From positions 70,561 to 134,560 of the IMG/VR virus record IMGVR_UViG_3300030616_000016: DNA of 64,000 nt. The stretch is one strand, 5' to 3'. Both the position numbers and the translations under genes were made by a program. Of this stretch, positions 878-64,000 are shown one piece after another; positions within the stretch are counted from its first letter, which is position 1; every line of letters starts with the position of its first letter. This stretch comes from a virus. The notes under the pieces were generated by a model. That model was not told where the DNA came from. It did not search any database and saw nothing but the letters and a program-made list of their open reading frames with translations.

Positions 878-2026
878 TTAGAACGAGTCAGCGCTTTCCT
901 TTTCTCTAACTGCTCTTTTTATTTGACTACTTAGTCTTGCGTGTGATTGCTTTTCTTTTGCTATGTCTTCTAATATTTCTATATCTTTACTGCTTAACAA
1001 CTTTCTTACTCTGATAATATCAAGGTGAGCAGCATATGATAGAGTTGCAAACAATGTTTCCAACTCCTTTTTATCACATTCATAATTCATGACTTTATGG
1101 ATCCACCCTTTATATTGCTTATATTTTTTGGATCCTATTCCACTAATTCTTCTTGCCATTGTTCTACGACTTATGTCAACTCCAAATACAACACCCAATG
1201 CACTTATTCTATTTATACCGCTTAACATAACTTTTGACTTATGTTTATTAAATCTCATTCCTTCTACTGCTACGGCCTTATTTGCGCACTTGAAAATATC
1301 ATTTATCCATTCTTTCCAGAATCTTTTAGATATGTAAGGCATAGAGCTACTTAGTTGTATGTCGTCAGCATATCTTGAATATCTGATCCTTCCATATGGC
1401 CAACCCATGCTTGACATTGTTATATCAAACTTTCTCATACATAGATTTGATATTACAGGACTTGATGGAGCACCTTGTGGTAATCCATTTGTCATTGAAA
1501 CAAGAGGTATTAATGGTATCTTATATTTTCTGCAGCATGTATCTACAGTATGTAATGATATAAGCATCTTTCTAATATGTTTTGCTTTAATAGATGGAAA
1601 GAAGTTCTTAATATCCATACTAATCATTATTCTAGCTCCATCATGTATCGACTGTAATTTGTTAATTGCAGTTTGGAAGCGTCTAGAACGTCTTAGTATT
1701 CTTCTAAAAGATTCTTGTGTTGTAAACAGCGGTTTTGGACTATATGCTAAGCTATGTCCATTTCTGTCATACTTTTGCAATAGCCATGAGACATATCTTT
1801 GTGCCGTTTTTAAGTCTTCGTCTGGCTCATGTAAATGCCTGATGCCACCTGATCTTTTTCTTATCATGTGGTGTGTATATCTTGAGTCTCTATCGTTTGA
1901 GTTTTGTTGTAAGTCTTCAAACAATTGCTGAATTGTAATACCAGATGGCAAGACTAGACTTAGAAAATTGTCAGGAGTTATATCATGAAGTCTCAGTTTC
2001 TTCTTTATCTGATTCTGTTCCATCAT
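878..2026 (-). CDS. Reverse transcriptase (retron/group-II/Abi-like RT domain, unclassified)
   Basis: RT motifs read in order: IRKRSGGIRHLHEP (RT1), ISMDIKNFFPSI (motif A), GLPQGAPSSPVISNL (motif B'), YADD (motif C catalytic), ALGVVFG (motif E). Length 382 aa. Start overlaps the stop of the upstream RecA-like gene. Confidence 0.8.
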   Translation of the reverse strand: MMEQNQIKKKLRLHDITPDNFLSLVLPSGITIQQLFEDLQQNSNDRDSRYTHHMIRKRSGGIRHLHEPDEDLKTAQRYVSWLLQKYDRNGHSLAYSPKPLFTTQESFRRILRRSRRFQTAINKLQSIHDGARIMISMDIKNFFPSIKAKHIRKMLISLHTVDTCCRKYKIPLIPLVSMTNGLPQGAPSSPVISNLCMRKFDITMSSMGWPYGRIRYSRYADDIQLSSSMPYISKRFWKEWINDIFKCANKAVAVEGMRFNKHKSKVMLSGINRISALGVVFGVDISRRTMARRISGIGSKKYKQYKGWIHKVMNYECDKKELETLFATLSYAAHLDIIRVRKLLSSKDIEILEDIAKEKQSHARLSSQIKRAVREKESADSF

Positions 2027-3107
2027 CTCCGCCTTCCGATTCCGTATTGTCAGATATTAATTTGGTTATATCATTGTTTGCTGCAAATTCATATAGTGCT
2101 ATTATTCCTTGCACGCTTTCTTCGCCTATGTAGTAGTATCCACCACGCTTGGTGATTTTACCATCTACAATCATTTGATCTACTAAAAATCTTTCTTCAC
2201 TAAACCCATGATTAAAGATGAATGGATATTTTACTTCGGCTCCCTCCGGCATAGTACCAGACTGTCTAGTCTTATTGATTTTCATGTAATGCATGAAGCC
2301 AATAATTTTCTCTTTCTTCTTTCCATCTTCTTCTACAATGGCAGCTGGAGCTTCGCTTTTGCTACCTCTACGAGTCATCAGCCTTACGTGTGTAAAATGC
2401 TTAACCGCATTTCCTCCCTTAACGAGAGTTAGGTCACCATATCCACCAATATTGGTGTATATTTGACCAATCATTATGATTGTTGTGTTTGTCTTTGCTG
2501 CAGGACCACAAGCAAGTCTTAGGAACTGGCTCATTTTTCTTTGAAGAACACCGATGGTATCATCGTTTAGGCTACGGTTAGTACCGGTTTTACTTTCGAG
2601 TTCTGCGCGTGGAAGCAGACCGCCAATTGAATCAATAACTACGATGTCTACTAAATTCTCTCTCATAATGTCGAGACATTTATCTAGCATGTTCTCCATC
2701 GTATCTTTCTCAATTATAAAGAGCTCATCTGTATTGACTCCTTGTACTTTTAACCACTCTTTATCCAATGCTTCTTCTGCATCAACCCAGCATGCAATAC
2801 CATGGTTTTTCTGAACTTCTGCTACACATCTTGCACATGCAGTGCCTTTAGCTGTCTGTTCTGGTCCGGCGATTGTAACAATTTTACCTCTAGGAAAACC
2901 TCCGCCTAAATAGTCATCCCAGCCTTTAATGCCGGTTGATATTCTACCGTAATCCTCTAGTCCAAAATGTACAATTTGATTTTCATCATCGATGTCTTTG
3001 TTAATAGAAGTCGCTACTCTTTTTAGACGAGCCATCTTCTCTGCTTTTATATCTTGTGGAGATACAATCTTTTCTTCACTAGTATCTTTGCTTTTTCTCT
3101 TAGCCAT
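1983..3107 (-). CDS. RecA/UvsX/RadA-family recombinase
   Basis: Colinear with RecA core: KIVTIAGPEQTAKGT (P-loop region), ACWVDAEEALD, VDIVVIDSIGGLLPRAELES, MIGQIYTNIGG...GGNAVKHFTHVRL, acidic C-terminal tail. Walker A is atypical (AKG in place of GKT). Confidence 0.85.
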   Translation of the reverse strand: MAKRKSKDTSEEKIVSPQDIKAEKMARLKRVATSINKDIDDENQIVHFGLEDYGRISTGIKGWDDYLGGGFPRGKIVTIAGPEQTAKGTACARCVAEVQKNHGIACWVDAEEALDKEWLKVQGVNTDELFIIEKDTMENMLDKCLDIMRENLVDIVVIDSIGGLLPRAELESKTGTNRSLNDDTIGVLQRKMSQFLRLACGPAAKTNTTIIMIGQIYTNIGGYGDLTLVKGGNAVKHFTHVRLMTRRGSKSEAPAAIVEEDGKKKEKIIGFMHYMKINKTRQSGTMPEGAEVKYPFIFNHGFSEERFLVDQMIVDGKITKRGGYYYIGEESVQGIIALYEFAANNDITKLISDNTESEGGDDGTESDKEETETS

Positions 3108-21872: not shown

Positions 21873-23167
21873 TACCCCACGCCTAAAGGCGGGGGCTTCC
21901 TAATTCATCGAAAATTGCGTTCCATACTGGCTACGTCTTACATCTTCTCCAAAGGCTTTAGGTTCCCCTTGCCCAGGGGTACAAAATGCAAAATTCAAAA
22001 TATTACTAGATGCAAGGGCATCTCTATCGTGTTTGGCACCACAAGTGCAAGTCCAATATCTGTCACTTAGCTTAAGATTATTATTTATAGCGCCGCACTG
22101 GTTACACATCTTGCTGGATGGTTCAAATCTTCCTATAGTCAAAACATGCTTTCCATACCAACCTGCCTTATACTCAAGAAAGGTACGAAAAGTATACCAT
22201 CCAACATCAGAGATAGCCTTGGCCAAACAATGATTCTTCACCATTCCAGAAACGTTTAAATCCTCAAGACACACTGCTTGGTTCTCGTCAATGAGCCTTT
22301 TGGACAATTTATGCAAAAAATCTTTACGTTGATTAGAAATCTTCTCATGTATCAACGCTACCTTCCTACGAGCCTTGTTTCTATTTGAAGAACCTTTCTT
22401 CTTCTTTGATAATTGTTTTTGCTTTCTTGCCAATCTTCTTTCAAGTTTCTTTAGGTATCTTGGATTATCTATTTTCTCGCCTGTTGATAGTGTTGCAAAA
22501 TGTTTTAATCCAACGTCAACACCTACACTATTATCTCGTTCAGGATTACATTTGATAGGTAATTCTTCTCCATTGTCAACCAAAATAGAAGCAAAGTATT
22601 TCCCAGAAGGAGCCATGAATATAGTTACAGTTTTAATATTGCCTTCAAATTGTCTATGGAATTTGCATTTGATGCCATCACGGAATTTCATTACATATAG
22701 CCTATTATTATCAAAATCCACATTACTTCCTTGTGGAAATTGACAAGATTGCTTTTTGAATTTCTTCTTAAATTGAGGATATCTTGCCTGTTTCTTAAAA
22801 AACCGCCGGAAAGCATTGTCAAGGTTTCTAAAGGCCATTTGCAAAGATTGACTATTAACTTCCTTCAGCCAACCATGCTCAGATTTCATATGTTTCAATT
22901 GCTTTATCAAATCAAAACAGGAAGGAGATTTCCCCGTTTTTTGATAAGACTCTGTTTTCTTTTGGAGTCCCAAATTGTATATGAACCGTACACAACCAAA
23001 ATGCTTCACAAGAAGCTCCTGTTGTTTTTTGTTGGGGTATATTTTGTATTTATATGCTCGTATCATTATATTTATAGTATAGCACAGGTTTCTGTAAATG
23101 TCAAGAGAAAAACGCATTCTTATATCCCCATGGCTAAAGCCAGGGGTCTTACGAATGCACCTTGATA
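21866..23167 (-). mobile_element. IS200/IS605-family insertion sequence, TnpB-only (IS1341-like), with subterminal hairpin ends
   Basis: Left end (near 23167) TATCAAGGTGCATTCGTAAGACCCCTGGCTTTAGCCATGGGG and right end (near 21866) GCCCCCGCCTTTAGGCGTGGGGTAATGTCAC. Both carry GC-rich hairpins with TTTA loops. The same ends recur at 33634-33883 and 62731-62781. Confidence 0.8.
21900..23117 (-). CDS. tnpB: TnpB (OrfB) RNA-guided nuclease of IS200/IS605 family
   Basis: 405 aa. RuvC-like NQAVCLEDLNVSGMVKN (RuvC-II E), zinc finger CNQCG...CTCG, RuvC-III DRDALASSNILNFA. Confidence 0.85.
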   Translation of the reverse strand: MRFSLDIYRNLCYTINIMIRAYKYKIYPNKKQQELLVKHFGCVRFIYNLGLQKKTESYQKTGKSPSCFDLIKQLKHMKSEHGWLKEVNSQSLQMAFRNLDNAFRRFFKKQARYPQFKKKFKKQSCQFPQGSNVDFDNNRLYVMKFRDGIKCKFHRQFEGNIKTVTIFMAPSGKYFASILVDNGEELPIKCNPERDNSVGVDVGLKHFATLSTGEKIDNPRYLKKLERRLARKQKQLSKKKKGSSNRNKARRKVALIHEKISNQRKDFLHKLSKRLIDENQAVCLEDLNVSGMVKNHCLAKAISDVGWYTFRTFLEYKAGWYGKHVLTIGRFEPSSKMCNQCGAINNNLKLSDRYWTCTCGAKHDRDALASSNILNFAFCTPGQGEPKAFGEDVRRSQYGTQFSMN

Positions 23168-49617: not shown

Positions 49618-50052
49618 TTAATCTCCATTGAGAGTTTCTATTGCACGCTCTTTAATGATTTCTTTTACTTTGTCTTCTATCTCATCCATTTTATCTTCAT
49701 CAAGATTATTTGATTCTGGTTTACGAGGACAGCTTGATTCCCAGTCACATTCGAAATCTACTGCAGATTTATCTGGTTCAATTGTGTATGTAGCACGACC
49801 ATGATAATCTTGATATCTCCAATCAGTACTTACTGTCTGTACTGATTTATAATTGGAGAGTTTTACTGTATTATGCTCTCTTGCTTCTTGTATATCATCC
49901 TGGATTTGTTCTTGTGTAACAATCTTATAGATTTGAGTAATATACTTTTTATTACAAGAAGTTTTCATAGCTGCATCATGTATGGTTTCTGCTTCTATGA
50001 TCTCGCTTTGTCCATTACAGCATAATACCTCAAAATGTGCTTTATTACTCAT
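49618..50052 (-). CDS. Hypothetical protein
   Basis: ORF of 144 aa. Confidence 0.45.
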   Translation of the reverse strand: MSNKAHFEVLCCNGQSEIIEAETIHDAAMKTSCNKKYITQIYKIVTQEQIQDDIQEAREHNTVKLSNYKSVQTVSTDWRYQDYHGRATYTIEPDKSAVDFECDWESSCPRKPESNNLDEDKMDEIEDKVKEIIKERAIETLNGD

Positions 50053-50294
50053 TGCTTGTCCTCCTTCTCCATGAATTCAAGTGTATTGTAATCAATAGCT
50101 TTGAAGCCCTTCTCTTCGAATGTTTCCATATATTTAAGCTGGCGCTCAAGATCTTTCAACAAAGCTTGAGCATTTGCTCTAGGAGAGCCTTCTGCAGGTA
50201 TGTTCTTCTTAACAAGATCAATTTTATCTCTGAGCTTCTGCTTAAATACATTCCTGTGTTTCATTGTCTCAGGGATATTTACTTTATGTGGCAT
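50049..50294 (-). CDS. Small hypothetical protein
   Basis: ORF of 81 aa. Confidence 0.35.
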   Translation of the reverse strand: MPHKVNIPETMKHRNVFKQKLRDKIDLVKKNIPAEGSPRANAQALLKDLERQLKYMETFEEKGFKAIDYNTLEFMEKEDKQ

Positions 50295-55866: not shown

Positions 55867-56099
55867 TTCTCCTCCTTAGATGACAGTGCGCAATATATGC
55901 CATATCTGCTATTACTCCTGCAAATAGTGAATTTGAGAAGTCGGCGCCAAGTGCCTTCATAAGAGAAAACATGATAAGTCCAATAACTGTTGCTATAAGA
56001 ATTTCCTTACTAGCATTATATGTTTCTTTAGAGCTCATTATTATATCTCCTATTATTTGCTATGCATTTCTTGTCAAAAGTTGCCAAAAACGTGTGCGT

Positions 56100-56312
56100 G
56101 CTTCTTGTTCCCATGCTATACGCCGGTCTTTTACGTCAGGGCCATCGCATTACACGTCTCAGATTTGTTCTGAGTGCGGCAAAAATGTCAAGAAATCGTT
56201 GTCCGCAAGAACCCACATATGCTCCTGCGGATTCGTTGCGAATCGAGATCACAACGCAGCGTTGAATATTTTGCGACTCGGGATGGAGTCGCTTGCAGCT
56301 TCGACTGCATAG
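56100..56312 (+). pseudogene. TnpB C-terminal fragment (a third, different family), GC-rich
   Basis: HYTSQICSECGKNVKKSLSARTHICSCGFVANRDHNAALNILRLG (TSQ-x-CS-x-CG ... C-x-CG ... D-x-NAA-x-NIL). Followed by hairpin GCTCGGCAATTCATTGCCGAGAGC. Confidence 0.6.
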
Positions 56313-58476: not shown

Positions 58477-58740
58477 CTACGCATTTGAGACTATGCCATC
58501 CGGCTTCTTTCCACTTTTGCAATTTCCTCTGTTGTAATATCCACTGTTGTTTTTCTCATCTACAGCCACTTTAATATCCTCCTTTGACAGATTTTTAACA
58601 AGTTTTATTTTATTTGTACACGCCTTATCCGAACATACTATACGGTCATTGTCAAATCCACATCCGTACACTGGCAACATGATTTCACCACAAATATCAC
58701 ACTTGATCTGCACCTCAATAGCCCTTATAAATTGGTTCAT
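58477..58740 (-). CDS. Small zinc-finger protein
   Basis: CDICGEIM...CSDKACTNK. The start overlaps the upstream stop (ATGA) inside a conserved junction. Confidence 0.4.
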   Translation of the reverse strand: MNQFIRAIEVQIKCDICGEIMLPVYGCGFDNDRIVCSDKACTNKIKLVKNLSKEDIKVAVDEKNNSGYYNRGNCKSGKKPDGIVSNA

Positions 58741-59105
58741 TGTTCACCGTCCTTCAATAATTCCGGGTTCTCGTGGATGTTGCCGATAATTTTGCCACTT
58801 GTGGCACCATAAAAAATTTGCCCGTCTTCGGTTTCAATATAAAAAGTTCCTCCCATCCATTTAACTACACCAATGAGGACGATTTCGAGATCGTATTTTA
58901 TAATATCACCTTGATAAACATCTTTGTCATCCCTGTCTTTAATATCGGTGAAGAACTCAGCAATACAGCCCTTTGCCAGCCTCTGAAAATAAGTGTGTCT
59001 AAGGTCAGCAACACAAAGCTCGCCGTTTGGGTTGAGGTAATATTCATCTTCGTCATGGTCATACTTGCCTTCGTTTTCATTCCATACCCTGAATTTACCA
59101 GTCAT
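58737..59105 (-). CDS. YopX-like protein
   Basis: C-terminal GNIHENPELLKDGEQ matches the YopX-family GNI(Y/H)ENPELL ending. Confidence 0.55.
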   Translation of the reverse strand: MTGKFRVWNENEGKYDHDEDEYYLNPNGELCVADLRHTYFQRLAKGCIAEFFTDIKDRDDKDVYQGDIIKYDLEIVLIGVVKWMGGTFYIETEDGQIFYGATSGKIIGNIHENPELLKDGEQ

Positions 59106-59153
59106 TGTTCTCCGTCCTCCTGTTCTGGTTCTGGTTCCGGTCCACCGTCTGGA

Positions 59154-59615
59154 CTATTGCTCTGATCCCACCACCTCAAACCACCGACACCGATATTTAT
59201 TTCCAGCTTGATGAATTTCAGATAATTTAGTTCGTACTTTAATAATCTCTACCTTATTGACACTGTATTCTTTCGCATGTCGCAAAGTGGGCCATAAATA
59301 TAAGCCGGGATGACATTCTGTGGTGCATACTGAGAAAAAATCAGCCGAGTAAAACCGACCATCTCTATATTTATCAATATGCCCAGCTTCCCGAGTTCGA
59401 TAACCAATAGCATAACCTTCGTCAATTTCGGGCCAGTCCGTTGGCGTGTTTAATGTCGCGTTCGGATCTAAAACGGTGTTCGACAAATTGGCTCCGGACA
59501 GATTAGCTCCGGACAGGTTGGCTCTGTACAGATTAGCTCCGGACAAATAGGCTCCGGACAAAGATGTCCCTTCGATCTCTTTTAACAATATTCCATCTTT
59601 ATTTTTGATTTTCAT
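59154..59615 (-). CDS. Pentapeptide-repeat protein with C-terminal globular domain
   Basis: LSGAYLSGANLYRANLSGANLSGANLSNTVL (A-[ND]-L-x-x repeats). The DNA shows 15-bp tandem GCTCCGGACAGATTA-like repeats at 59460-59570. Confidence 0.7.
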   Translation of the reverse strand: MKIKNKDGILLKEIEGTSLSGAYLSGANLYRANLSGANLSGANLSNTVLDPNATLNTPTDWPEIDEGYAIGYRTREAGHIDKYRDGRFYSADFFSVCTTECHPGLYLWPTLRHAKEYSVNKVEIIKVRTKLSEIHQAGNKYRCRWFEVVGSEQ

Positions 59616-59835
59616 TTTTTATCTCCATCAGCCACTGCCTTTCCCGATAATAATCGTCCCATCTTTCCTTCCAATACGCATCGTTCTCTTTCCTGCAATC
59701 CGGGCAGAGTGTAACCCAATTTTTCTCTTCATCAGTAAAAAGCGTGTTCTGTCTATATCTTTCAGCGTCATTTGCACCGCACGCTTGACATTTATTCTCT
59801 TTTTTAATATCCTTTAACTGAGATTCTGTTTTCAT
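59599..59835 (-). CDS. Small zinc-finger protein
   Basis: CQACGANDAERY...CPDCRKEN. Confidence 0.4.
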   Translation of the reverse strand: MKTESQLKDIKKENKCQACGANDAERYRQNTLFTDEEKNWVTLCPDCRKENDAYWKERWDDYYRERQWLMEIKNENQK

Positions 59836-60335
59836 TGTTCACCGTCCTTCCAGACGATGCCGACGATTTTGGCACGCTTAATTTTTTTGTAATCTAAATG
59901 GTATAACGAATTGTACCAGCCGCCGCTGTTTGCCCCAAACCAGCCATGAGTAGTGCTTATTATATAATTATCAGGACGGCCCGGTTCCACCTGTAGCAGG
60001 CCGAGGCATTGGTTGAGATCCATGAGTTTGGATTCTGTTTTTAAAAGACCGTATATTTTATATAGTCTTTTAGTTCCAAATCTTTCTTTGTGACGTTTTT
60101 TCTCCGGCTCAATTAATCTGTACCCCTCTGGCAACTGGTAAATAGGCTTCTCTGGCTCTAGCTCTTTGAGTTCCAAGCCGATTTCTTCTGGGTCGGTGTA
60201 TCCCATTGGGCTGTTATAACCACAACAACATACTATATAGTTTGACATTGTACTTAGTGTAAGTTTATGGCCAAGCGAGGTTGCTGCTTTGTTTATCACA
60301 TTCTCATACGGACATTTATAATCTTCAATCTTCAT
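59832..60335 (-). CDS. Hypothetical protein ending KDGEQ
   Basis: 167 aa. Shares its C-terminal KDGEQ-stop junction with the YopX-like gene. Confidence 0.5.
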   Translation of the reverse strand: MKIEDYKCPYENVINKAATSLGHKLTLSTMSNYIVCCCGYNSPMGYTDPEEIGLELKELEPEKPIYQLPEGYRLIEPEKKRHKERFGTKRLYKIYGLLKTESKLMDLNQCLGLLQVEPGRPDNYIISTTHGWFGANSGGWYNSLYHLDYKKIKRAKIVGIVWKDGEQ

Positions 60336-60634
60336 TCACCATCCTCCTGTGGTTTGATAGTTATTTTGCCATCTAAACAAAAGTGTTTGCAGTTTTTTCT
60401 TCTACCTTTTATTGATTTACATAGTATATTTTTATATGCGTAGCAAACTGCAAAATAAGAAATATTCCACGCTGAAATACCCCATGCTGAAATGTCCCAT
60501 GCTGAAATATTCTCTGCTGAAATATTTCTTGCTGAAATATCCCCTGCTGAAATACTAAAACTAATATCAATGTCACAGCATATGCACACATCATCATCAA
60601 TAACAGCAGTATTAGTTTTATCAACGTATTTCAA
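60332..60634 (-). CDS. Repeat protein (tandem ISAxx pentapeptides); start codon uncertain (TTG)
   Basis: DISARNISAENISAWDISAWGISAWNIS, encoded by 15-bp tandem repeats GCTGAAATATYYC at 60470-60560. Confidence 0.4.
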   Translation of the reverse strand: MKYVDKTNTAVIDDDVCICCDIDISFSISAGDISARNISAENISAWDISAWGISAWNISYFAVCYAYKNILCKSIKGRRKNCKHFCLDGKITIKPQEDGE

Positions 60635-60681
60635 TAACTCTTCCTGTTTTTTATTATAATCATTCTCCGTCCTCCTCTGGT

Positions 60682-61008
60682 TCAGTCAATAACGTTTCGT
60701 ATTTCATTTTCAAATGGATCGACCTCACGTACAATTCCGATTTTATATTTGCCGGGCGATAGTGTTACTGGTCCATGCTCCTGATGCATAACGATTGCCT
60801 CTTTATCAACATAGCAATAGTGTTCGCCAGTGGCATCTTCCATTAGCATAACTCCGTCTGCAACACACGAATGATGGTGCCCTGTGACTTTTCCTTCAGC
60901 AAAAGTAACAAGTCCTTTTCGTGTGTTTTTTACCGGCTTTAAATTCGCAGGTATGCTATCAACTTCCTTAAACAGTACATCTCCCTGCTGTATTAAACGT
61001 TTCTCCAT
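60682..61008 (-). CDS. Hypothetical protein (His-rich segment HHHSCVADGV)
   Basis: 108 aa. A deleted copy of this gene recurs at 63840-63918. Confidence 0.5.
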   Translation of the reverse strand: MEKRLIQQGDVLFKEVDSIPANLKPVKNTRKGLVTFAEGKVTGHHHSCVADGVMLMEDATGEHYCYVDKEAIVMHQEHGPVTLSPGKYKIGIVREVDPFENEIRNVID

Positions 61009-61019
61009 TATTTAAACTC

Positions 61020-62240
61020 CTATGTCAATTGTTCTGGAATAAGCTCGCTTTGATTTCTCCAATTTAGAGCTTGTTCCACTGTTTTGATATTTTGTGGTAC
61101 GCATTCCATGTGCCATGTACCAATGCTTGGATTTAGCATTTTAAGATAAGGCCATTTGCCGGTCTCACCCTTCAGATCTACTACAACCAATTCATAATCT
61201 CCTTGCGTGTCCAGTGATTCAGCGCCCGTAGATTTGACAATTCGTTCTATACCTACCTTTCTTATAAACTCCCTACGGACTTCTGCATTATCAAGTTCTG
61301 CGAATTTAGCAGGGTCAATGTCATGCTCATTCGTTTCTGCTAACCACTGCGGAACTCGTACATTATTCAAATGCCACAGTCCCCAACCGTCCGCAAATTT
61401 TACAGACATTCCTCCATCTTTATGCAGATGACTGGCTTTCCAGTTTATTTCGATTGGATTCCGACTTACAATAGCAACATTTTTATACAGTGCGCTTGAG
61501 GATATTTTTCTGTTGTAATTTAGAAATATATCATATTTTTCTTTCTCATATTTAACGCCTATATATTTCCCAAACTCGTAAACTCCGCACCAATCATTCC
61601 ACCATATGTTTATATACTGCTCGGTTTTTAATTTGTTGGCACTAAGCCTGTCACGAAGGCTGTCACGAAGGCTGTCACGAAGGCTGGCATCAAGACTGTT
61701 ACGAAGACCGGCACTAAGACTATCATAAAAACTATTATGAAGACTGTCATAAAGACTGTTACGAATATTGTCATGAAGGCTGTTACGAAGACTTTTATGA
61801 AGACTGGCATAAAGACTGTCATAAAGACTGGCATAAAGTTTGTCATAAAGATTGTCATGGAGACTGTTACGAAGACTTTTACGAAGACTTTTACGAAGAC
61901 TGGCATCAAGACTGTAATAAAGACTGTCATAAAGACTGGTATAAAGTTTGTCATAAAGATTGTCATGGAGACTGTTACGAAGACTTTTATGAAGATTGTC
62001 ATGAAGATTGTTATGAAGATTGTCACTAAGCAAATGTTCTGTTAGTGCTGTTGTTAATGGGCTATCACAGATTATAATTTTAATGGCATTATCTGCACCA
62101 GTCATTTTTACAATAGGCAATACTGCGTGTTTAATTTCTTCATCACTGTATTGCGCCGATATGAGGTTTAAACAGCGATTTATATGTCTTGGTATCATTT
62201 TTTCTTGTTCTTTTGTTAAACTCATAATTTCCTCTTTCAT
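61020..62240 (-). CDS. Repeat protein: ~35 tandem xSLx tetrapeptides (12-bp DNA period) plus conserved ~220-aa C-terminal domain
   Basis: SLRNSLHDNLYDKLYTSLYDSLYYSLDASLRKSLRKSL... The DNA at 61620-62030 is tandem 12-mers (GACTGTCACGAAGGCTGTCACGAAGG...). A paralogous C-terminus restarts at 63926. Confidence 0.6.
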   Translation of the reverse strand: MKEEIMSLTKEQEKMIPRHINRCLNLISAQYSDEEIKHAVLPIVKMTGADNAIKIIICDSPLTTALTEHLLSDNLHNNLHDNLHKSLRNSLHDNLYDKLYTSLYDSLYYSLDASLRKSLRKSLRNSLHDNLYDKLYASLYDSLYASLHKSLRNSLHDNIRNSLYDSLHNSFYDSLSAGLRNSLDASLRDSLRDSLRDRLSANKLKTEQYINIWWNDWCGVYEFGKYIGVKYEKEKYDIFLNYNRKISSSALYKNVAIVSRNPIEINWKASHLHKDGGMSVKFADGWGLWHLNNVRVPQWLAETNEHDIDPAKFAELDNAEVRREFIRKVGIERIVKSTGAESLDTQGDYELVVVDLKGETGKWPYLKMLNPSIGTWHMECVPQNIKTVEQALNWRNQSELIPEQLT

Positions 62241-62512
62241 TCTGCGTCCTCCTGTTCTGGTTCTGGTCTTGTTACTTTAAATCCCATGTTTTCAACTTCA
62301 TCCAAAGTATAAGCATCCTTCCGTGGTTCTTTATATTTTCTGCTTAATTCTATCCATTTATTACAACTTGGACAACGGCTATACATGTTCCTGATTTCTG
62401 TAGGGTCAACCTTATTCAGCATGCACTCTCCATCTTTGCTTTGAAATGAATCAACAGTGGTTCCACAAAAAGGGCAATACATTTCAAAGTTTACATAGTC
62501 ATACATTCCCAT
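62237..62512 (-). CDS. Small zinc-ribbon protein
   Basis: CPFCGTTVDSF...CPSCNKW. C-terminus PEPEQEDAE overlaps the conserved junction sequence. Confidence 0.45.
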   Translation of the reverse strand: MGMYDYVNFEMYCPFCGTTVDSFQSKDGECMLNKVDPTEIRNMYSRCPSCNKWIELSRKYKEPRKDAYTLDEVENMGFKVTRPEPEQEDAE

Positions 62513-62730
62513 TCTACGTCCTCCTCAATTATTTTTTGAAGACTTTTGAAATCTGACTTTAAGTCAAAAATTGCTTTTATCATCCATCCTATCGATGTTA
62601 GTATAAATGTGATAAAGCAATAGAAAACTATATCCATTTGGTATTCTCCTGTATGTGTATCCGGCCATTTATTAGGCCAAAATGGCCTGATTGATAATTA
62701 AGTTTGTTCGATAGGCGCCGCTTAACCGCT

Positions 62731-63839: not shown

Positions 63840-63918
63840 TATTAGTCACGAACCATGTTAATTTCTTTTTTGAATGGATCTACTTCTCTTACAATGTCTA
63901 TCTTTTCTCCATTGTTTG
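63840..63918 (-). pseudogene. Internally deleted remnant of a 60682-61008 paralog
   Basis: Retains MEKR at the start and VDPF..stop at the end, in nucleotide homology to 60682-60740 and 60990-61010, with the core missing. Confidence 0.5.
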
Positions 63919-63925
63919 ACTCCTA

Positions 63926-64000
63926 TGTCAATTGTTCTGGAATAAGCTCGCTCCGATTTCTCCAATTTAGAGCTTGCCGCACTGTTTTGATATTTTGTGG
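63926..64000 (-). CDS. C-terminal end of a paralog of the xSLx-repeat protein (continues beyond the window)
   Basis: 63930-64000 is near-identical to 61017-61087 (CAATTGTTCTGGAATAAGCTCGCT...TTTGATATTTTGTGG). Confidence 0.55.

What the first reader, a model, noticed from the sequence alone, without database searches (positions are those of the whole stretch)
58737..62512. Conserved gene-junction cassette GGAGGACGGAGAA(CA)ATGA reused at five gene boundaries in a GC-richer module
The same ~20-nt sequence occurs at 58741, 59106, 59836, 60647 and 62241 in - strand orientation. It provides a strong SD (GGAGGA), an ATG overlapping a TGA (ATGA coupling), and the C-terminal residues (K/E)DGE(Q) or PEPEQEDAE of the upstream protein. 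At 59106-59153 the cassette sits in a 48-nt gap and encodes PEPEPEQEDGEQ-stop in an otherwise closed frame, that is, a relic of a former upstream gene end. Such reused linker sequences are signatures of module shuffling by short-homology recombination. They define a mosaic region of YopX-like, pentapeptide-repeat, Zn-finger and repeat proteins with G+C above the genome background.
Basis: seen in the sequence. Interest (0 to 1): 0.6.

Follow-up and report, generated by a model that had tools for sequence, protein, structure and literature searches.

The report
Reused gene-junction cassette in a jumbo phage
Seven of nine consecutive gene boundaries in a small accessory-gene block of an uncultured ~232-kb phage carry copies of one 20-30-nt sequence (ribosome-binding site plus overlapping stop/start), and one copy sits exactly at the breakpoints of a strain-level gene rearrangement, so it probably both couples translation and serves as a short-homology site for swapping whole genes.

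Summary
GGAGGACGGAGAA (≤2 mismatches) occurs 7 times, not 5. All copies are on the - strand, all abut a start codon, and all lie in 58,737-62,526. There are none in the other ~79 kb of the same 231.6-kb phage contig that I could read (chance expectation 0.73).

The copies share ancestry; they did not converge. J2/J6 share 27 of 28 nt and J5/J7 share 20 of 20 nt, while 5,460 control junction pairs share at most 14 nt. The flanking genes belong to unrelated families: YopX, pentapeptide, Zn-ribbon, DUF6745 and ORFans. Their homologues lack the EDGE(Q)/PEPEQ tails.

Each copy places a strong SD 6-9 nt before ATG. Four give true ATGA stop/start overlaps. Two lie after an earlier stop.

New evidence for shuffling comes from a second sample. 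One contig there diverges from the window immediately after the ATGA of J7. Another contig starts exactly at the first base of J7.

Best reading: a translational-coupling junction that doubles as microhomology for in-register gene exchange. It is a translation-level analogue of T4 PeSLs, lambdoid boundary sequences and mycobacteriophage SASs. Recombination is inferred, not shown, and no diverged relative carries the motif. I rate it a new variant of a known kind, of moderate interest.

The parts
62510..62526 (-). J1 cassette GAGGAGGACGTAGA-ATG(G). Start of the 91-aa Zn-ribbon gene. The upstream 48-aa ORF reads it as EEDVE and runs on 7 more codons, so there is no ATGA stop here.
62237..62267 (-). 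J2 cassette ACCAGAACCAGAACAGGAGGACGCAGA-ATGA. It encodes the tail PEPEQEDAE* of the Zn-ribbon protein and the start of the 406-aa DUF6745 repeat protein. True 4-nt overlap.
   Evidence: (D10)
60660..60683 (-). J3 cassette GAACCAGAGGAGGACGGAGA-ATGA. It lies after the stop (60684-60682) of the 108-aa gene and is non-coding in that gene's frame. Its ATG opens only a 10-codon ORF.
60631..60663 (-). 10-codon uORF MIIIKNRKSY*. Its TGA overlaps the TTG start (60634-60632) of the 100-aa repeat protein (TTGA). It contains A_AAA_AAC, whose -1 frame is the TTG frame. The A6 run is identical in 4 assemblies.
60332..60350 (-). J4 cassette ACAGGAGGATGGTGA-ATGA. It encodes the tail QEDGE* of the 100-aa protein and the start of the 167-aa ORFan. 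True 4-nt overlap. GC3 rises downstream of it.
59831..59850 (-). J5 cassette (type B) GAAGGACGGTGAACA-ATGAA. It encodes the tail KDGEQ* of the 167-aa protein and the start of the 78-aa Zn-ribbon gene. Identical over 20 nt to J7.
   Evidence: (D8)
59102..59135 (-). J6 cassette ACCAGAACCAGAACAGGAGGACGGAGAACA-ATGA. Its 5' part matches J2 (27/28) and its 3' part (GAACAATGA) matches type B. Start of the YopX gene.
   Evidence: D10, D8
59106..59153 (-). 48-nt non-coding gap after the pentapeptide gene's TAG. In the +1 frame it reads ...DGGPEPEPEQEDGEQ*, apparently the relic of another gene's 3' end carried in with the cassette.
58736..58755 (-). J7 cassette (type B) GAAGGACGGTGAACA-ATGAA. It encodes the tail KDGEQ* of YopX and the start of the 87-aa gene. 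Both of its edges are breakpoints of a structural polymorphism in sample ERZ27252208.
58477..62637 (-). Tightly packed co-directional block of 10 small accessory genes. In order, with the junction ahead of each: 48 aa; J1 then 91-aa Zn-ribbon; J2 then 406-aa DUF6745/4-aa-repeat; 108 aa; J3 then 100-aa pentapeptide-like repeat; J4 then 167-aa ORFan; J5 then 78-aa Zn-ribbon; 153-aa pentapeptide; J6 then 122-aa YopX; J7 then 87 aa.
63842..63912 (-). Internally deleted relic of a second copy of the 108-aa gene (MEKR*...KIDIVREVDPFKKEINMVRD*). It follows the paralogous 371-aa DUF6745 gene. Homology to the J2-J3 module stops at the stop codon, and no cassette follows.
   Evidence: (D4)
50049..50064 (-). 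Possible degenerate eighth copy, GGAGGACAAGCA-ATGA (tail EDKQ*). It is one of only nine 4-nt overlaps in the window.

Best explanation
The element is a ~20-30-nt gene-junction cassette with the consensus [GAACCAGA(ACA)] GGAGGAYGNNGA(ACA) ATGA. It has been copied to 7 of 9 consecutive boundaries in a polycistronic block of unrelated accessory genes in an uncultured ~232-kb phage.

**Step 1, read directly from the sequence.** Each copy puts a full GGAGGA (or GAAGGA) Shine-Dalgarno 6-9 nt upstream of an ATG. In most copies the ATG is followed by A, so a TGA stop overlaps the start.

**Step 2, inferred from established knowledge of ATGA overlaps.** Ribosomes finishing the upstream ORF re-initiate on the next one (termination-reinitiation coupling), or initiate de novo on the strong SD. 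Any ORF placed behind a cassette is therefore expressed without its own promoter. As a by-product, the cassette dictates the last residues of the upstream protein, (E/K)D(G/A/V)E(Q).

**Step 3, inferred with partial support.** The same 19-28 nt recurs in direct orientation at every boundary. This gives the phage's recombination machinery microhomology; a RecA-like gene and a RuvC gene lie on the same contig. That microhomology could allow insertion, deletion or exchange of whole ORFs in register. Each event would leave a working TIR downstream and an in-frame stop upstream. Where the incoming or resident ORF has its own stop, it leaves a non-coding 'relic tail', as at J3 and J6.
For: - **Enrichment and clustering.** 7 hits against 0.73 expected, all within 3.8 kb and none in ~79 kb more of the contig.
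- **Always at a start codon and on one strand**.
- **Descent, not convergence.** J2/J6 match 27/28 and J5/J7 match 20/20, with identical synonymous codons. Control junction pairs share ≤12-14 nt. The other four ATGA/TTGA overlaps in the window have unrelated sequences, as do about 25 of 35 junctions in a control phage, the other ~10 being that phage's own repeated junction.
- **Sub-family structure.** The PEPEQ-coding extension is shared only by J2, J6 and J3. J6 is a hybrid of type A (5') and type B (3'). This points to copying events within the cassette.
- **Unrelated flanking genes**, whose homologues lack the tails.
- **Two non-coding copies.** J3 and J6 lie after earlier stops.
- **Atypical TIR for this genome.** 87 of 105 starts have a GGAG-type 4-mer core and typically an AT-rich spacer. 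Only 11 have GGAGG.
- **Population variant at J7.** L002 (99.8% identical over 5,264 nt) diverges right after the ATGA of J7 into 24 nt that are absent from 83 kb of the contig. L065 (99.9% identical, same k=141 assembly) begins exactly at the first base of J7. A 20-nt repeat cannot break a k=141 graph, so real alternative neighbours are implied.
- **Paralogous module bounded by J2 and J3**.
- **GC3 step at J4**.
- **Recombination genes on the same contig.** RecA_N and RuvC.
- **Coupling at ATGA overlaps with an intragenic SD is experimentally established** (PMC6728339).
Against: - Recombination at the cassette is inferred from two contig ends in a single metagenome assembly. The inserted or alternative gene X was not recovered, and I had no reads.
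- Phage mosaic breakpoints sit at gene boundaries even without linker homology, through illegitimate recombination plus selection (PMC3029335).
- The four assemblies otherwise have the same gene order.
- No diverged relative carries the motif, so neither conservation nor mobility across genomes can be shown.
- 19-28 nt is short for RecA-type exchange.
- Coupling itself is untested. There is no consistent RNA structure or accessibility signal.
- At J1, J3 and J6 there is no true stop/start overlap.
Confidence: 0.55

Rival explanations
1. A purely translational or regulatory element, like the start-associated sequences (SAS) of mycobacteriophages. On this reading the extended motif is kept by selection as a special TIR. 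For example, it could be the binding site of a phage translational regulator or RNase, or a device to out-compete host mRNAs for a co-regulated early gene set. Recombination would play no part.
For: - All copies are start-associated, on one strand, and contain the SD core.
- Conservation extends beyond the part that can pair with 16S rRNA.
- The TIR differs from the genome norm.
- Variation among copies is confined to positions -6, -4 and -3, while the SD and the GA-ATG are invariant.
- An unrelated phage (L005) also reuses GGAGGACGGAGA at 4 gene starts, with a near-identical GGAGGACGGAAGA at a fifth.
- The SAS precedent (PMC3203893).
Against: - The extra identity upstream of the SD (ACCAGAACCAGAACA in J2/J6, partly in J3) is absent from J1, J4, J5 and J7. 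It is therefore not functionally required, and it marks copying events.
- J7's edges coincide with a structural polymorphism.
- No candidate regulator was identified, and there is no RNA structure.
- No conservation in related phages.
Confidence: 0.2
2. A passive historical scar. On this reading the block was built by a few duplications or illegitimate joins that happened to carry one junction along. The cassette is then just an ordinary strong RBS with no special role in later recombination or regulation.
For: - Gene order is identical in all four assemblies that cover it.
- No copies exist elsewhere in 83 kb, so the motif could reflect a handful of local events.
- Tandem and paralogous duplication is active nearby: the DUF6745 paralogue, the deletion relic and repeat-number variation.
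Against: - Seven copies between nine unrelated genes need many independent events that all end at the same sequence.
- 5 of 7 upstream ORFs read the cassette in the same frame.
- The L002/L065 termini fall at both edges of J7.
Confidence: 0.2
3. A conserved acidic C-terminal peptide, (PEPEQ)EDGE(Q), selected at the protein level. It might be an interaction tag or a degron, with the DNA similarity as a by-product.
For: - 5 of 7 upstream ORFs read the motif in the E-D-x-E frame.
- J4 differs from J3 only by two synonymous changes.
Against: - J3 and J6 lie after stop codons and are non-coding.
- J5 and J7 use identical codons over 20 nt.
- Homologues of YopX and of the Zn-ribbon family have no such tail.
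- The motif is positioned with respect to the downstream start codon, not to protein domains.
Confidence: 0.03
4. Chance or convergence. On this reading any strong SD placed before an ATGA overlap would look like this.
For: - The SD plus the ATGA geometry fixes about 10 of the 17 positions and forces an E-D/E-type tail.
- Isolated identical 19-mers occur in unrelated phages: L009 and L019 carry IIDMEDGEQ*.
Against: - 0 of 100 shuffles reach 7 hits.
- The 23- and 19-nt exact matches are extreme outliers among 5,460 junction pairs.
- The other ATGA overlaps in the window and in L060 are dissimilar.
Confidence: 0.02

Closest known systems
PeSLs (promoter-early stem-loops) of T4-type phages (Arbiol et al. 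2010, PMC2839356; PMC4122927)
   Same: - Small conserved expression cassettes repeated in direct orientation between non-essential ORFans in a hyperplastic region.
- They give each inserted gene its expression signal.
- They serve as homology for modular shuffling.
   Different: - PeSLs are transcriptional (a sigma-70 promoter plus a terminator hairpin) and intergenic.
- This cassette has no promoter or hairpin. It works at the level of translation (SD plus overlapping stop/start) and overlaps the coding end of the upstream gene.
- Mini-circles or recombinants are not demonstrated here.
Short conserved boundary (linker) sequences of lambdoid phages, and the Island3 gp67/gp68 case (Susskind & Botstein 1978 and Clark et al. 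2001, as cited in PMC3029335)
   Same: - Short identical sequences at the boundaries of unrelated genes.
- In Island3, two adjacent unrelated genes share their C-terminal 18 residues and about 50 bp. This was read as the footprint of recombination.
   Different: - There are usually one or two such sites per comparison. Here 7 copies lie in 3.8 kb.
- Those sites are defined by comparing genomes. Here the evidence comes mainly from within one genome plus one population variant.
- This cassette also has a defined translational anatomy.
Start-associated sequences (SAS) of Cluster K mycobacteriophages (Pope et al. 2011, PMC3203893)
   Same: - A 13-nt asymmetric motif containing the SD core, lying a few nt upstream of ATG.
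- One orientation, non-structural genes, different gene families.
- Conserved beyond what 16S pairing explains.
   Different: - The SAS consensus is GGGATAGGAGCCC. There are 11-19 copies spread over half a genome, mostly in gaps of more than 50 bp.
- SASs are conserved across a whole phage cluster, often with ESAS inverted repeats.
- This motif has a different sequence, is confined to one 3.8-kb operon, overlaps upstream ORFs, has no inverted repeats and was not found in relatives.
Termination-reinitiation coupling at ATGA overlaps with an intragenic SD (Huber et al. 2019, PMC6728339)
   Same: A 4-nt stop/start overlap preceded by a strong SD inside the upstream gene, present at J2, J4, J5 and J7.
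   Different: That is a generic architecture whose sequences are not shared between junctions. Here one sequence is reused, including at sites without a true overlap (J1, J3 and J6).
SPO1 'host-takeover module' (Stewart et al. 1998, Virology 246:329; from my own knowledge, reference seen in PMC12282133)
   Same: A cluster of small early accessory genes with unusually strong, similar ribosome-binding sites.
   Different: As I recall it, the similarity there is limited to extended 16S complementarity. It does not involve a copied junction that encodes the upstream C-terminus. I did not check this.

Membership tests
Short conserved boundary / linker sequences (modular phage evolution) | The same short sequence at boundaries between non-homologous genes | tested here: met
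   7 copies. The flanking genes are unrelated by BLASTP, Pfam and PHROGs.
Short conserved boundary / linker sequences (modular phage evolution) | Mosaic breakpoints between genomes coincide with the sequence | tested here: inconclusive
   There is one population variant: L002 diverges right after J7 and L065 starts at the first base of J7. A paralogous module is also bounded by J2 and J3. No diverged genome was available.
PeSL regulatory cassettes (T4-type phages) | A strong sigma-70-type early promoter within the cassette | tested here: not met
   No promoter-like site coincides with the cassettes beyond chance. The scan found 40 sites against 30 ± 5 in shuffles, none of them consistent across copies.
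PeSL regulatory cassettes (T4-type phages) | A stem-loop terminator within the cassette | tested here: not met
   No terminator-like hairpin lies at any junction. The folds are unremarkable.
PeSL regulatory cassettes (T4-type phages) | Repeated in direct orientation between ORFans in a variable region, where it mediates insertion and deletion | tested here: inconclusive
   The arrangement is met. Mediation is supported only by the J7 polymorphism.
Start-associated sequences (Cluster K mycobacteriophages) | An asymmetric ~13-nt repeat containing the SD core, 3-8 nt upstream of start codons, in one orientation | tested here: met
   The spacing is 6-9 nt and all copies are on the - strand.
Start-associated sequences (Cluster K mycobacteriophages) | The consensus GGGATAGGAGCCC, with copies spread over the non-structural half, mostly in gaps of more than 50 bp, and conserved across related phages | tested here: not met
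   The sequence is different. The copies are confined to 3.8 kb. 5 of 7 overlap the upstream ORF. The motif is absent from relatives. The SAS features are taken from PMC3203893.
Termination-reinitiation translational coupling | Stop and start codons overlap (ATGA) with an SD in the 3' end of the upstream gene | tested here: met
   Met at J2, J4, J5 and J7. J1 overlaps by 22 nt. J3 and J6 follow gaps of 18 and 48 nt.
Termination-reinitiation translational coupling | Downstream translation depends on upstream translation | not testable with these tools
   This needs reporter fusions or Ribo-seq.
Programmed -1 ribosomal frameshift (at J3) | A slippery heptamer X_XXY_YYZ in the zero frame, with a downstream stimulatory structure | tested here: inconclusive
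   A_AAA_AAC is present in frame, and its -1 frame is the long ORF. There is no downstream structure: z = 0.38. The alternatives are a TTGA-coupled uORF or a fixed frameshift mutation.

The most novel reading that the evidence does not exclude
The block is an integrase-free 'gene-cassette array'. Promoter-less ORFs are exchanged within and between phage genomes as units bounded by a conserved SD-ATGA junction. Homologous recombination on 19-28 nt drops any ORF into the operon in register. The junction then automatically supplies translation (by coupling) to the newcomer and a stop codon to its upstream neighbour. This would be a translation-level counterpart of PeSLs or integron attC sites, acting as a general route by which jumbo phages acquire accessory or anti-defence genes.
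Probability: 0.3. Interest if true: 0.65.

Novelty: new variant of a known kind. Interest (0 to 1): 0.45.

Why it matters
Phage accessory regions turn over quickly, yet how new ORFs are inserted so that they are expressed at once is understood in only a few systems. The examples are T4 PeSLs and a handful of lambdoid and mycobacteriophage boundary sequences.

A reused junction that provides both the ribosome-binding site with stop/start coupling and the homology for exchange would explain how promoter-less ORFans can be shuffled in register inside an operon. It would also explain why unrelated small phage proteins can share odd C-terminal tails, which is a caution for annotation and for motif hunting.

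The case is directly testable. The prediction is that reads from sample ERZ27252208 will show an extra gene block flanked by two copies of GAAGGACGGTGAACAATGA. The cassette is also a ready-made part for building coupled synthetic operons.

Tried and rejected
**Searches for the motif elsewhere**
- Exact-pattern scans of IMG/VR with GGAGGACGGAGAA-N0-2-ATGA and with GAACCAGA-N0-3-GGAGGACGNAGAA, and of the metagenome collection with the second pattern. Nearly all hits were single copies in unrelated contigs of very different GC, about the chance level. The source phage is not in those collections.
- A search for the 24-nt L002 tail (gene X) in IMG/VR, in all fetched loci and in 83 kb of the source contig. 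It was absent everywhere.

**Searches for relatives**
- Megablast and tblastn against 50,697 phage records. There were no close relatives. YopX gave only 28-42% hits.
- The search for related loci with the 167-aa and 406-aa proteins in IMG/VR found nothing.
- The 167-aa protein has no homologue among 5.8 billion proteins.
- Relatives reached through the neighbouring 546-aa protein (≤68% identity; long contigs only at ≤46%) lack the motif within ±10 kb.
- The DUF6745 domain is widespread in phages and bacteria and tells nothing about the cassette.

**Tests on the region itself**
- Cryptic paralogy among the cluster genes was rejected.
- RNA structure or SD sequestration: there is no signal. Accessibility is 0.51 against 0.49 ± 0.13 for other starts. 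Rfam gave no hit.
- Promoters and terminators: nothing at the cassettes.
- SNPs among the four assemblies: none fall in the cassettes, but with only 11 SNPs this is uninformative.
- A -1 frameshift stimulator downstream of J3: none.
- The 365/730-nt spacing of J7-J6-J5 I treated as coincidence.

**Limit on coverage**
- Walking the whole 231.6-kb contig was not possible. Look-ups accept only window proteins, so only record 87,250-170,164 was read.

Full report
**Context.** The window is part of a 231,593-bp metagenomic contig (ENA ERZ27252234 k141_1275754). All of its genes are on the - strand and GC is about 0.36. It encodes helicases, a split RNA-polymerase beta-like protein, NAMPT, a TnpB-type transposase and a reverse transcriptase. 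Just beyond or at the window edge lie a RecA-like protein, RuvC and a PolIII-alpha. This is an uncultured jumbo phage. Megablast and tblastn against 50,697 phage records find no close relative.

**1. The observation.** GGAGGACGGAGAA with ≤2 mismatches occurs 7 times, all on the - strand and all between 58,743 and 62,524. Shuffles expect 0.73, and 0 of 100 reach 7. The junctions, read on the - strand, are:

| Junction | Sequence |
|---|---|
| J1 (62524) | ttgaGGAGGACGTAGA-ATGG |
| J2 (62252) | accagaaccagaacaGGAGGACGCAGA-ATGA |
| J3 (60675) | gaaccagaGGAGGACGGAGA-ATGA |
| J4 (60347) | accacaGGAGGATGGTGA-ATGA |
| J5 (59850) | GAAGGACGGTGAACA-ATGA |
| J6 (59120) | accagaaccagaacaGGAGGACGGAGAACA-ATGA |
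| J7 (58755) | GAAGGACGGTGAACA-ATGA |

Four are correctly placed, '60647' is about 15 nt off, and J1 and J4 were missed. There are no further copies in the remaining 60 kb of the window or in 19 kb more of the same contig. That makes 7 copies in 3.8 kb and none in about 79 kb.

The repeat finder reports J2/J6 as 28 nt at 96% identity and J5/J7 as 20 nt at 100%.

As a control I took the -30..+4 windows of 105 predicted gene starts. Among the 5,460 pairs, the longest common substrings are J2-J6 (23), J5-J7 (19) and J3-J6 (14). One unrelated pair reaches 14 and every other pair is ≤12.

Only nine junctions in the window are true 4-nt overlaps. Four of them are cassettes and one (50052) resembles a cassette. 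The other four are unrelated in sequence. About 25 of 35 junctions in another large phage (L060) are likewise diverse; the other ~10 carry that phage's own repeated junction. An SD plus the ATGA geometry therefore does not by itself produce this sequence. The copies are homologous.

**2. Anatomy.** The block from 62637 to 58477 is a gap-poor, co-directional run of ten small genes. In order, with the junction that precedes each:
- a 48-aa gene
- J1, then a 91-aa Zn-ribbon gene
- J2, then a 406-aa DUF6745 protein with about thirty 4-aa repeats
- a 108-aa gene
- J3, then a 100-aa pentapeptide-like repeat protein
- J4, then a 167-aa ORFan
- J5, then a 78-aa Zn-ribbon gene
- a 153-aa pentapeptide-repeat protein
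- J6, then the 122-aa YopX gene
- J7, then an 87-aa gene

The proteins are not paralogues of each other. They fall in different PHROGs or in none. The 167-aa protein has no homologue in 5.8 billion proteins.

Every cassette places GGAGGA (GAAGGA in type B) 6-9 nt before an ATG. At J2, J4, J5 and J7 the upstream ORF ends in the overlapping TGA, so the cassette encodes its last residues: PEPEQEDAE*, QEDGE* and KDGEQ* twice.

These tails are not family features.
- YopX homology ends at residue 118 of 122.
- The Zn-ribbon family has 812 representatives. In 24 aligned homologues its conserved domain ends at G77-F78 and is followed by short variable tails, none of them PEPEQEDAE.
- The 108-aa protein matches its PHROG to the profile end, and its stop lies before J3.

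At J3 and J6 the upstream gene stops 18 and 48 nt earlier. There the cassette is non-coding and reads (T)EPEEDGE* and DGGPEPEPEQEDGEQ* in the +1 frame. That frame happens to stay open for 34 and 48 codons respectively, so 'otherwise closed' is not accurate.

At J1 the upstream 48-aa ORF reads EEDVE and continues, because the start is ATGG.

The J3 ATG opens only a 10-codon ORF. Its TGA overlaps the TTG start of the 100-aa gene (TTGA). The uORF contains A_AAA_AAC, whose -1 frame is the long ORF. The A6 run is identical in four assemblies, and no stimulatory structure follows it.

**3. What kind of similarity is it?** Variation among the type-A copies is confined to positions -6, -4 and -3. The SD and the GA-ATG are invariant, which fits a TIR.

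The extra identity upstream of the SD (ACCAGAACCAGAACA) is shared only by J2 and J6, and partly by J3. It is absent from J1, J4, J5 and J7. It is therefore not a functional requirement but a mark of copying.

J5 and J7 use identical codons. J6 combines the 5' part of J2 with the 3' part (GAACAATGA) of type B.

The cassette TIR is atypical for this genome. 87 of 105 starts have a GGAG-type 4-mer core and typically an AT-rich spacer. Only 11 have GGAGG, and 4 of those are cassette starts (J1, J2, J4, J6).

There is no common RNA structure, no unusual accessibility, no Rfam hit, and no promoter or terminator at the junctions.

**4. Evidence on shuffling.**

(a) A duplicated module. The 406-aa gene plus the 108-aa gene lie exactly between J2 and J3. 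A second copy lies upstream: a 371-aa paralogue with 46% amino-acid identity, whose last 82 nt are 94% identical. It is followed by an internally deleted relic of the 108-aa gene at 63912-63842. This second copy has different flanks. Homology starts at the ATG and ends at the stop codon, after which copy A has J3 and copy B has an AT-rich spacer.

(b) A composition step. The five genes downstream of J4 have GC3 of 0.39-0.43, all at or above about the 88th percentile of window genes (mean 0.30 ± 0.07). The genes upstream have 0.17-0.33.

(c) A population variant. This is the most direct evidence, and it comes from sample ERZ27252208. Contig L002 is 99.8% identical to the window over 5,264 nt. 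It runs through YopX and the J7 cassette ...GAAGGACGGTGAACAATGA. It then continues with CCTACTATCACGCAATCTTCTTTA (M-T-Y-Y-H-A-I-F-F) instead of the 87-aa gene. A second contig from the same assembly, L065, is 99.9% identical. It begins exactly at 58755, the first base of the 20-nt J5/J7 repeat, and carries the 87-aa gene onwards.

The contigs are named k141_, which points to a final k of 141, and a 20-nt repeat cannot collapse a graph at that k. The simplest reading is therefore that genomes in this sample differ in what follows YopX-J7 and in what precedes J7-87aa. In other words, the two edges of the cassette are the two breakpoints. The 24-nt tail is absent from 83 kb of the source contig, from all fetched loci and from IMG/VR, so the alternative gene could not be identified.

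Caveats. This rests on contig ends, not reads. Gene-boundary breakpoints are also expected under illegitimate recombination plus selection (PMC3029335). The other assemblies (L003, L004, L063) show the same gene order, with only SNPs and a 108-nt repeat-number change in the 406-aa gene.

**5. Relatives.** Exact-pattern scans of IMG/VR and of the metagenome collection gave, with one exception (L005), single-copy hits in unrelated contigs. Two of these (L009 and L019) carry the identical 19-mer as an IIDMEDGEQ* junction in a 50% GC phage. A single occurrence can therefore arise independently.

One unrelated phage, L005, reuses AAAGGAGGACGGAGATG, or a near-identical variant, at five gene starts; three of the five match it exactly. 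Two of those copies sit within 60-nt duplicated promoter-leader regions. L060 reuses a different ~45-nt junction six times. Repeated TIR cassettes are thus not rare in phages, which tempers the novelty.

Relatives found through the neighbouring 546-aa protein reach ≤68% identity, with long contigs only at ≤46%. They lack the motif within ±10 kb. Conservation or mobility across diverged genomes therefore could not be tested.

**6. Mechanism.**
- Shown from the sequence: the cassette is a start-codon-associated SD element, copied between unrelated genes, that also encodes the upstream C-terminus and stop.
- Inferred from established knowledge: ATGA overlaps with an intragenic SD give tight termination-reinitiation coupling in bacteria, and the SD often contributes strongly (PMC6728339). 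The cassette therefore lets promoter-less ORFs be expressed in series.
- Inferred with partial support: direct repeats of 19-28 nt at each boundary act as microhomology for the phage's RecA/RuvC-type machinery. Whole ORFs could then be inserted, lost or swapped in register. The relic tails at J3 and J6, the hybrid J6, the J2-J3-bounded paralogous module and the J7 polymorphism would be footprints of this.

I put 0.55 on this dual role. I put 0.2 on a purely translational or regulatory (SAS-like) element, 0.2 on a passive scar, and at most 0.05 on a protein-level tail or chance together.

**7. Comparison with known systems.**
- Closest in logic are T4-type PeSLs (PMC2839356, PMC4122927). It fails PeSL membership because it has no promoter and no hairpin.
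- It matches the concept of short conserved boundary sequences and resembles the Island3 gp67/68 shared C-terminus (PMC3029335). Here the sequence is reiterated seven times and has a defined translational anatomy.
- It resembles mycobacteriophage SASs in position, asymmetry and SD content (PMC3203893). It differs in sequence, distribution, overlap with coding ends and lack of conservation across phages.

I therefore file it as a new variant of a known kind: regulatory or junction cassettes associated with modular shuffling. It is not a member of any named family.

**8. Verdict.** The feature is real and non-random. It is more extensive than reported, and its translational role is clear from its anatomy. 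Its role in recombination is plausible and has one piece of direct population evidence. Interest is moderate at 0.45: the concept is decades old, but clean multi-copy examples at the level of translation, with a breakpoint at the cassette edges, are uncommon and directly testable.

Noticed in passing
window 60631-60663 (- strand): The J3 ATG opens only a 10-codon uORF (MIIIKNRKSY*). Its TGA overlaps the TTG start of the 100-aa gene. The uORF contains the slippery heptamer A_AAA_AAC, whose -1 frame is the long ORF. The A6 run is fixed in four assemblies. This could be uORF coupling, a -1 frameshift, or a fixed frameshift mutation.
   Followed up: partly
window 63842-63912 (- strand), continuing beyond 64000 (L001 5298-6500): A second copy of the DUF6745 gene (371 aa, 46% identity, last 82 nt 94% identical). 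It is followed by an internally deleted, stop-containing relic of the 108-aa gene.
   Followed up: yes
L001 5040-5200 (same contig, about 1.2 kb beyond window position 64000): About eight tandem ~20-nt repeats (ACTTTTTATAAGTTAATCTG and variants) in the intergenic gap upstream of the 371-aa paralogue. They look like an iteron or an array of regulator-binding sites.
   Followed up: no
window 61600-62056 (- strand); L063: The 406-aa protein contains about 30 copies of a 12-nt (4-aa, SLxD-like) repeat. A contig from SRR8554434 carries a 108-nt (36-aa) shorter version, which is either repeat-number polymorphism or assembly collapse.
   Followed up: partly
window 60444-60563 (- strand gene 60332-60634): The 100-aa protein has 15-nt (pentapeptide-like, xISAx) tandem repeats, and a canonical pentapeptide-repeat protein lies at 59154-59615. 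That makes two five-residue-repeat proteins, which could be DNA mimics, in one small block.
   Followed up: no
window 55971-56312 (+ strand) and 21900-23117 (- strand): The first site is a TnpB C-terminal fragment (CSECG...HICSCG...NRDHNAALNI) lying antisense to the gene flow. The second is a full TnpB/IS200-605-type transposase gene (phrog_506, E = 1.5e-133) elsewhere in the window.
   Followed up: no
window 878-3107 (- strand): A reverse-transcriptase gene (RVT_1) lies immediately downstream of, and overlaps, a RecA-like gene in a jumbo phage.
   Followed up: no
window 60736-60812 and 59711-59755: The SNPs that separate L002 and L003 from the window are clustered: 5 within 77 nt inside the 108-aa gene and 3 within 45 nt inside the 78-aa gene. 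These may be short gene-conversion tracts.
   Followed up: no
window 50049-50064 (- strand): The junction GGAGGACAAGCA-ATGA (tail EDKQ*) resembles the cassette. It is 8.7 kb away from the cluster and may be a degenerate eighth copy.
   Followed up: partly
L005 1-4110 (IMGVR_UViG_3300033149_002004): An unrelated, GC-richer phage reuses AAAGGAGGACGGAG(A)ATG at four gene starts and AAAGGAGGACGGAAGATG at a fifth. Two of the copies sit in duplicated promoter-leader regions of about 60 nt (92% identical). It is an independent example of a reused TIR cassette with the same 12-mer core.
   Followed up: partly
L060 9530-13320 (181.7-kb phage contig, ERZ27313161): Six copies of a ~45-nt junction, CAGGTCCGCGATCAGGTCAAGGAGATAGTCA-ATGGATAACA, lie between small genes. 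L060 and L061 differ by indels in this stretch.
   Followed up: no
window 58736, 59101, 59831: The start-to-start spacing of J7, J6 and J5 is 365 and 730 nt, exactly a factor of two. I take this as coincidence.
   Followed up: no
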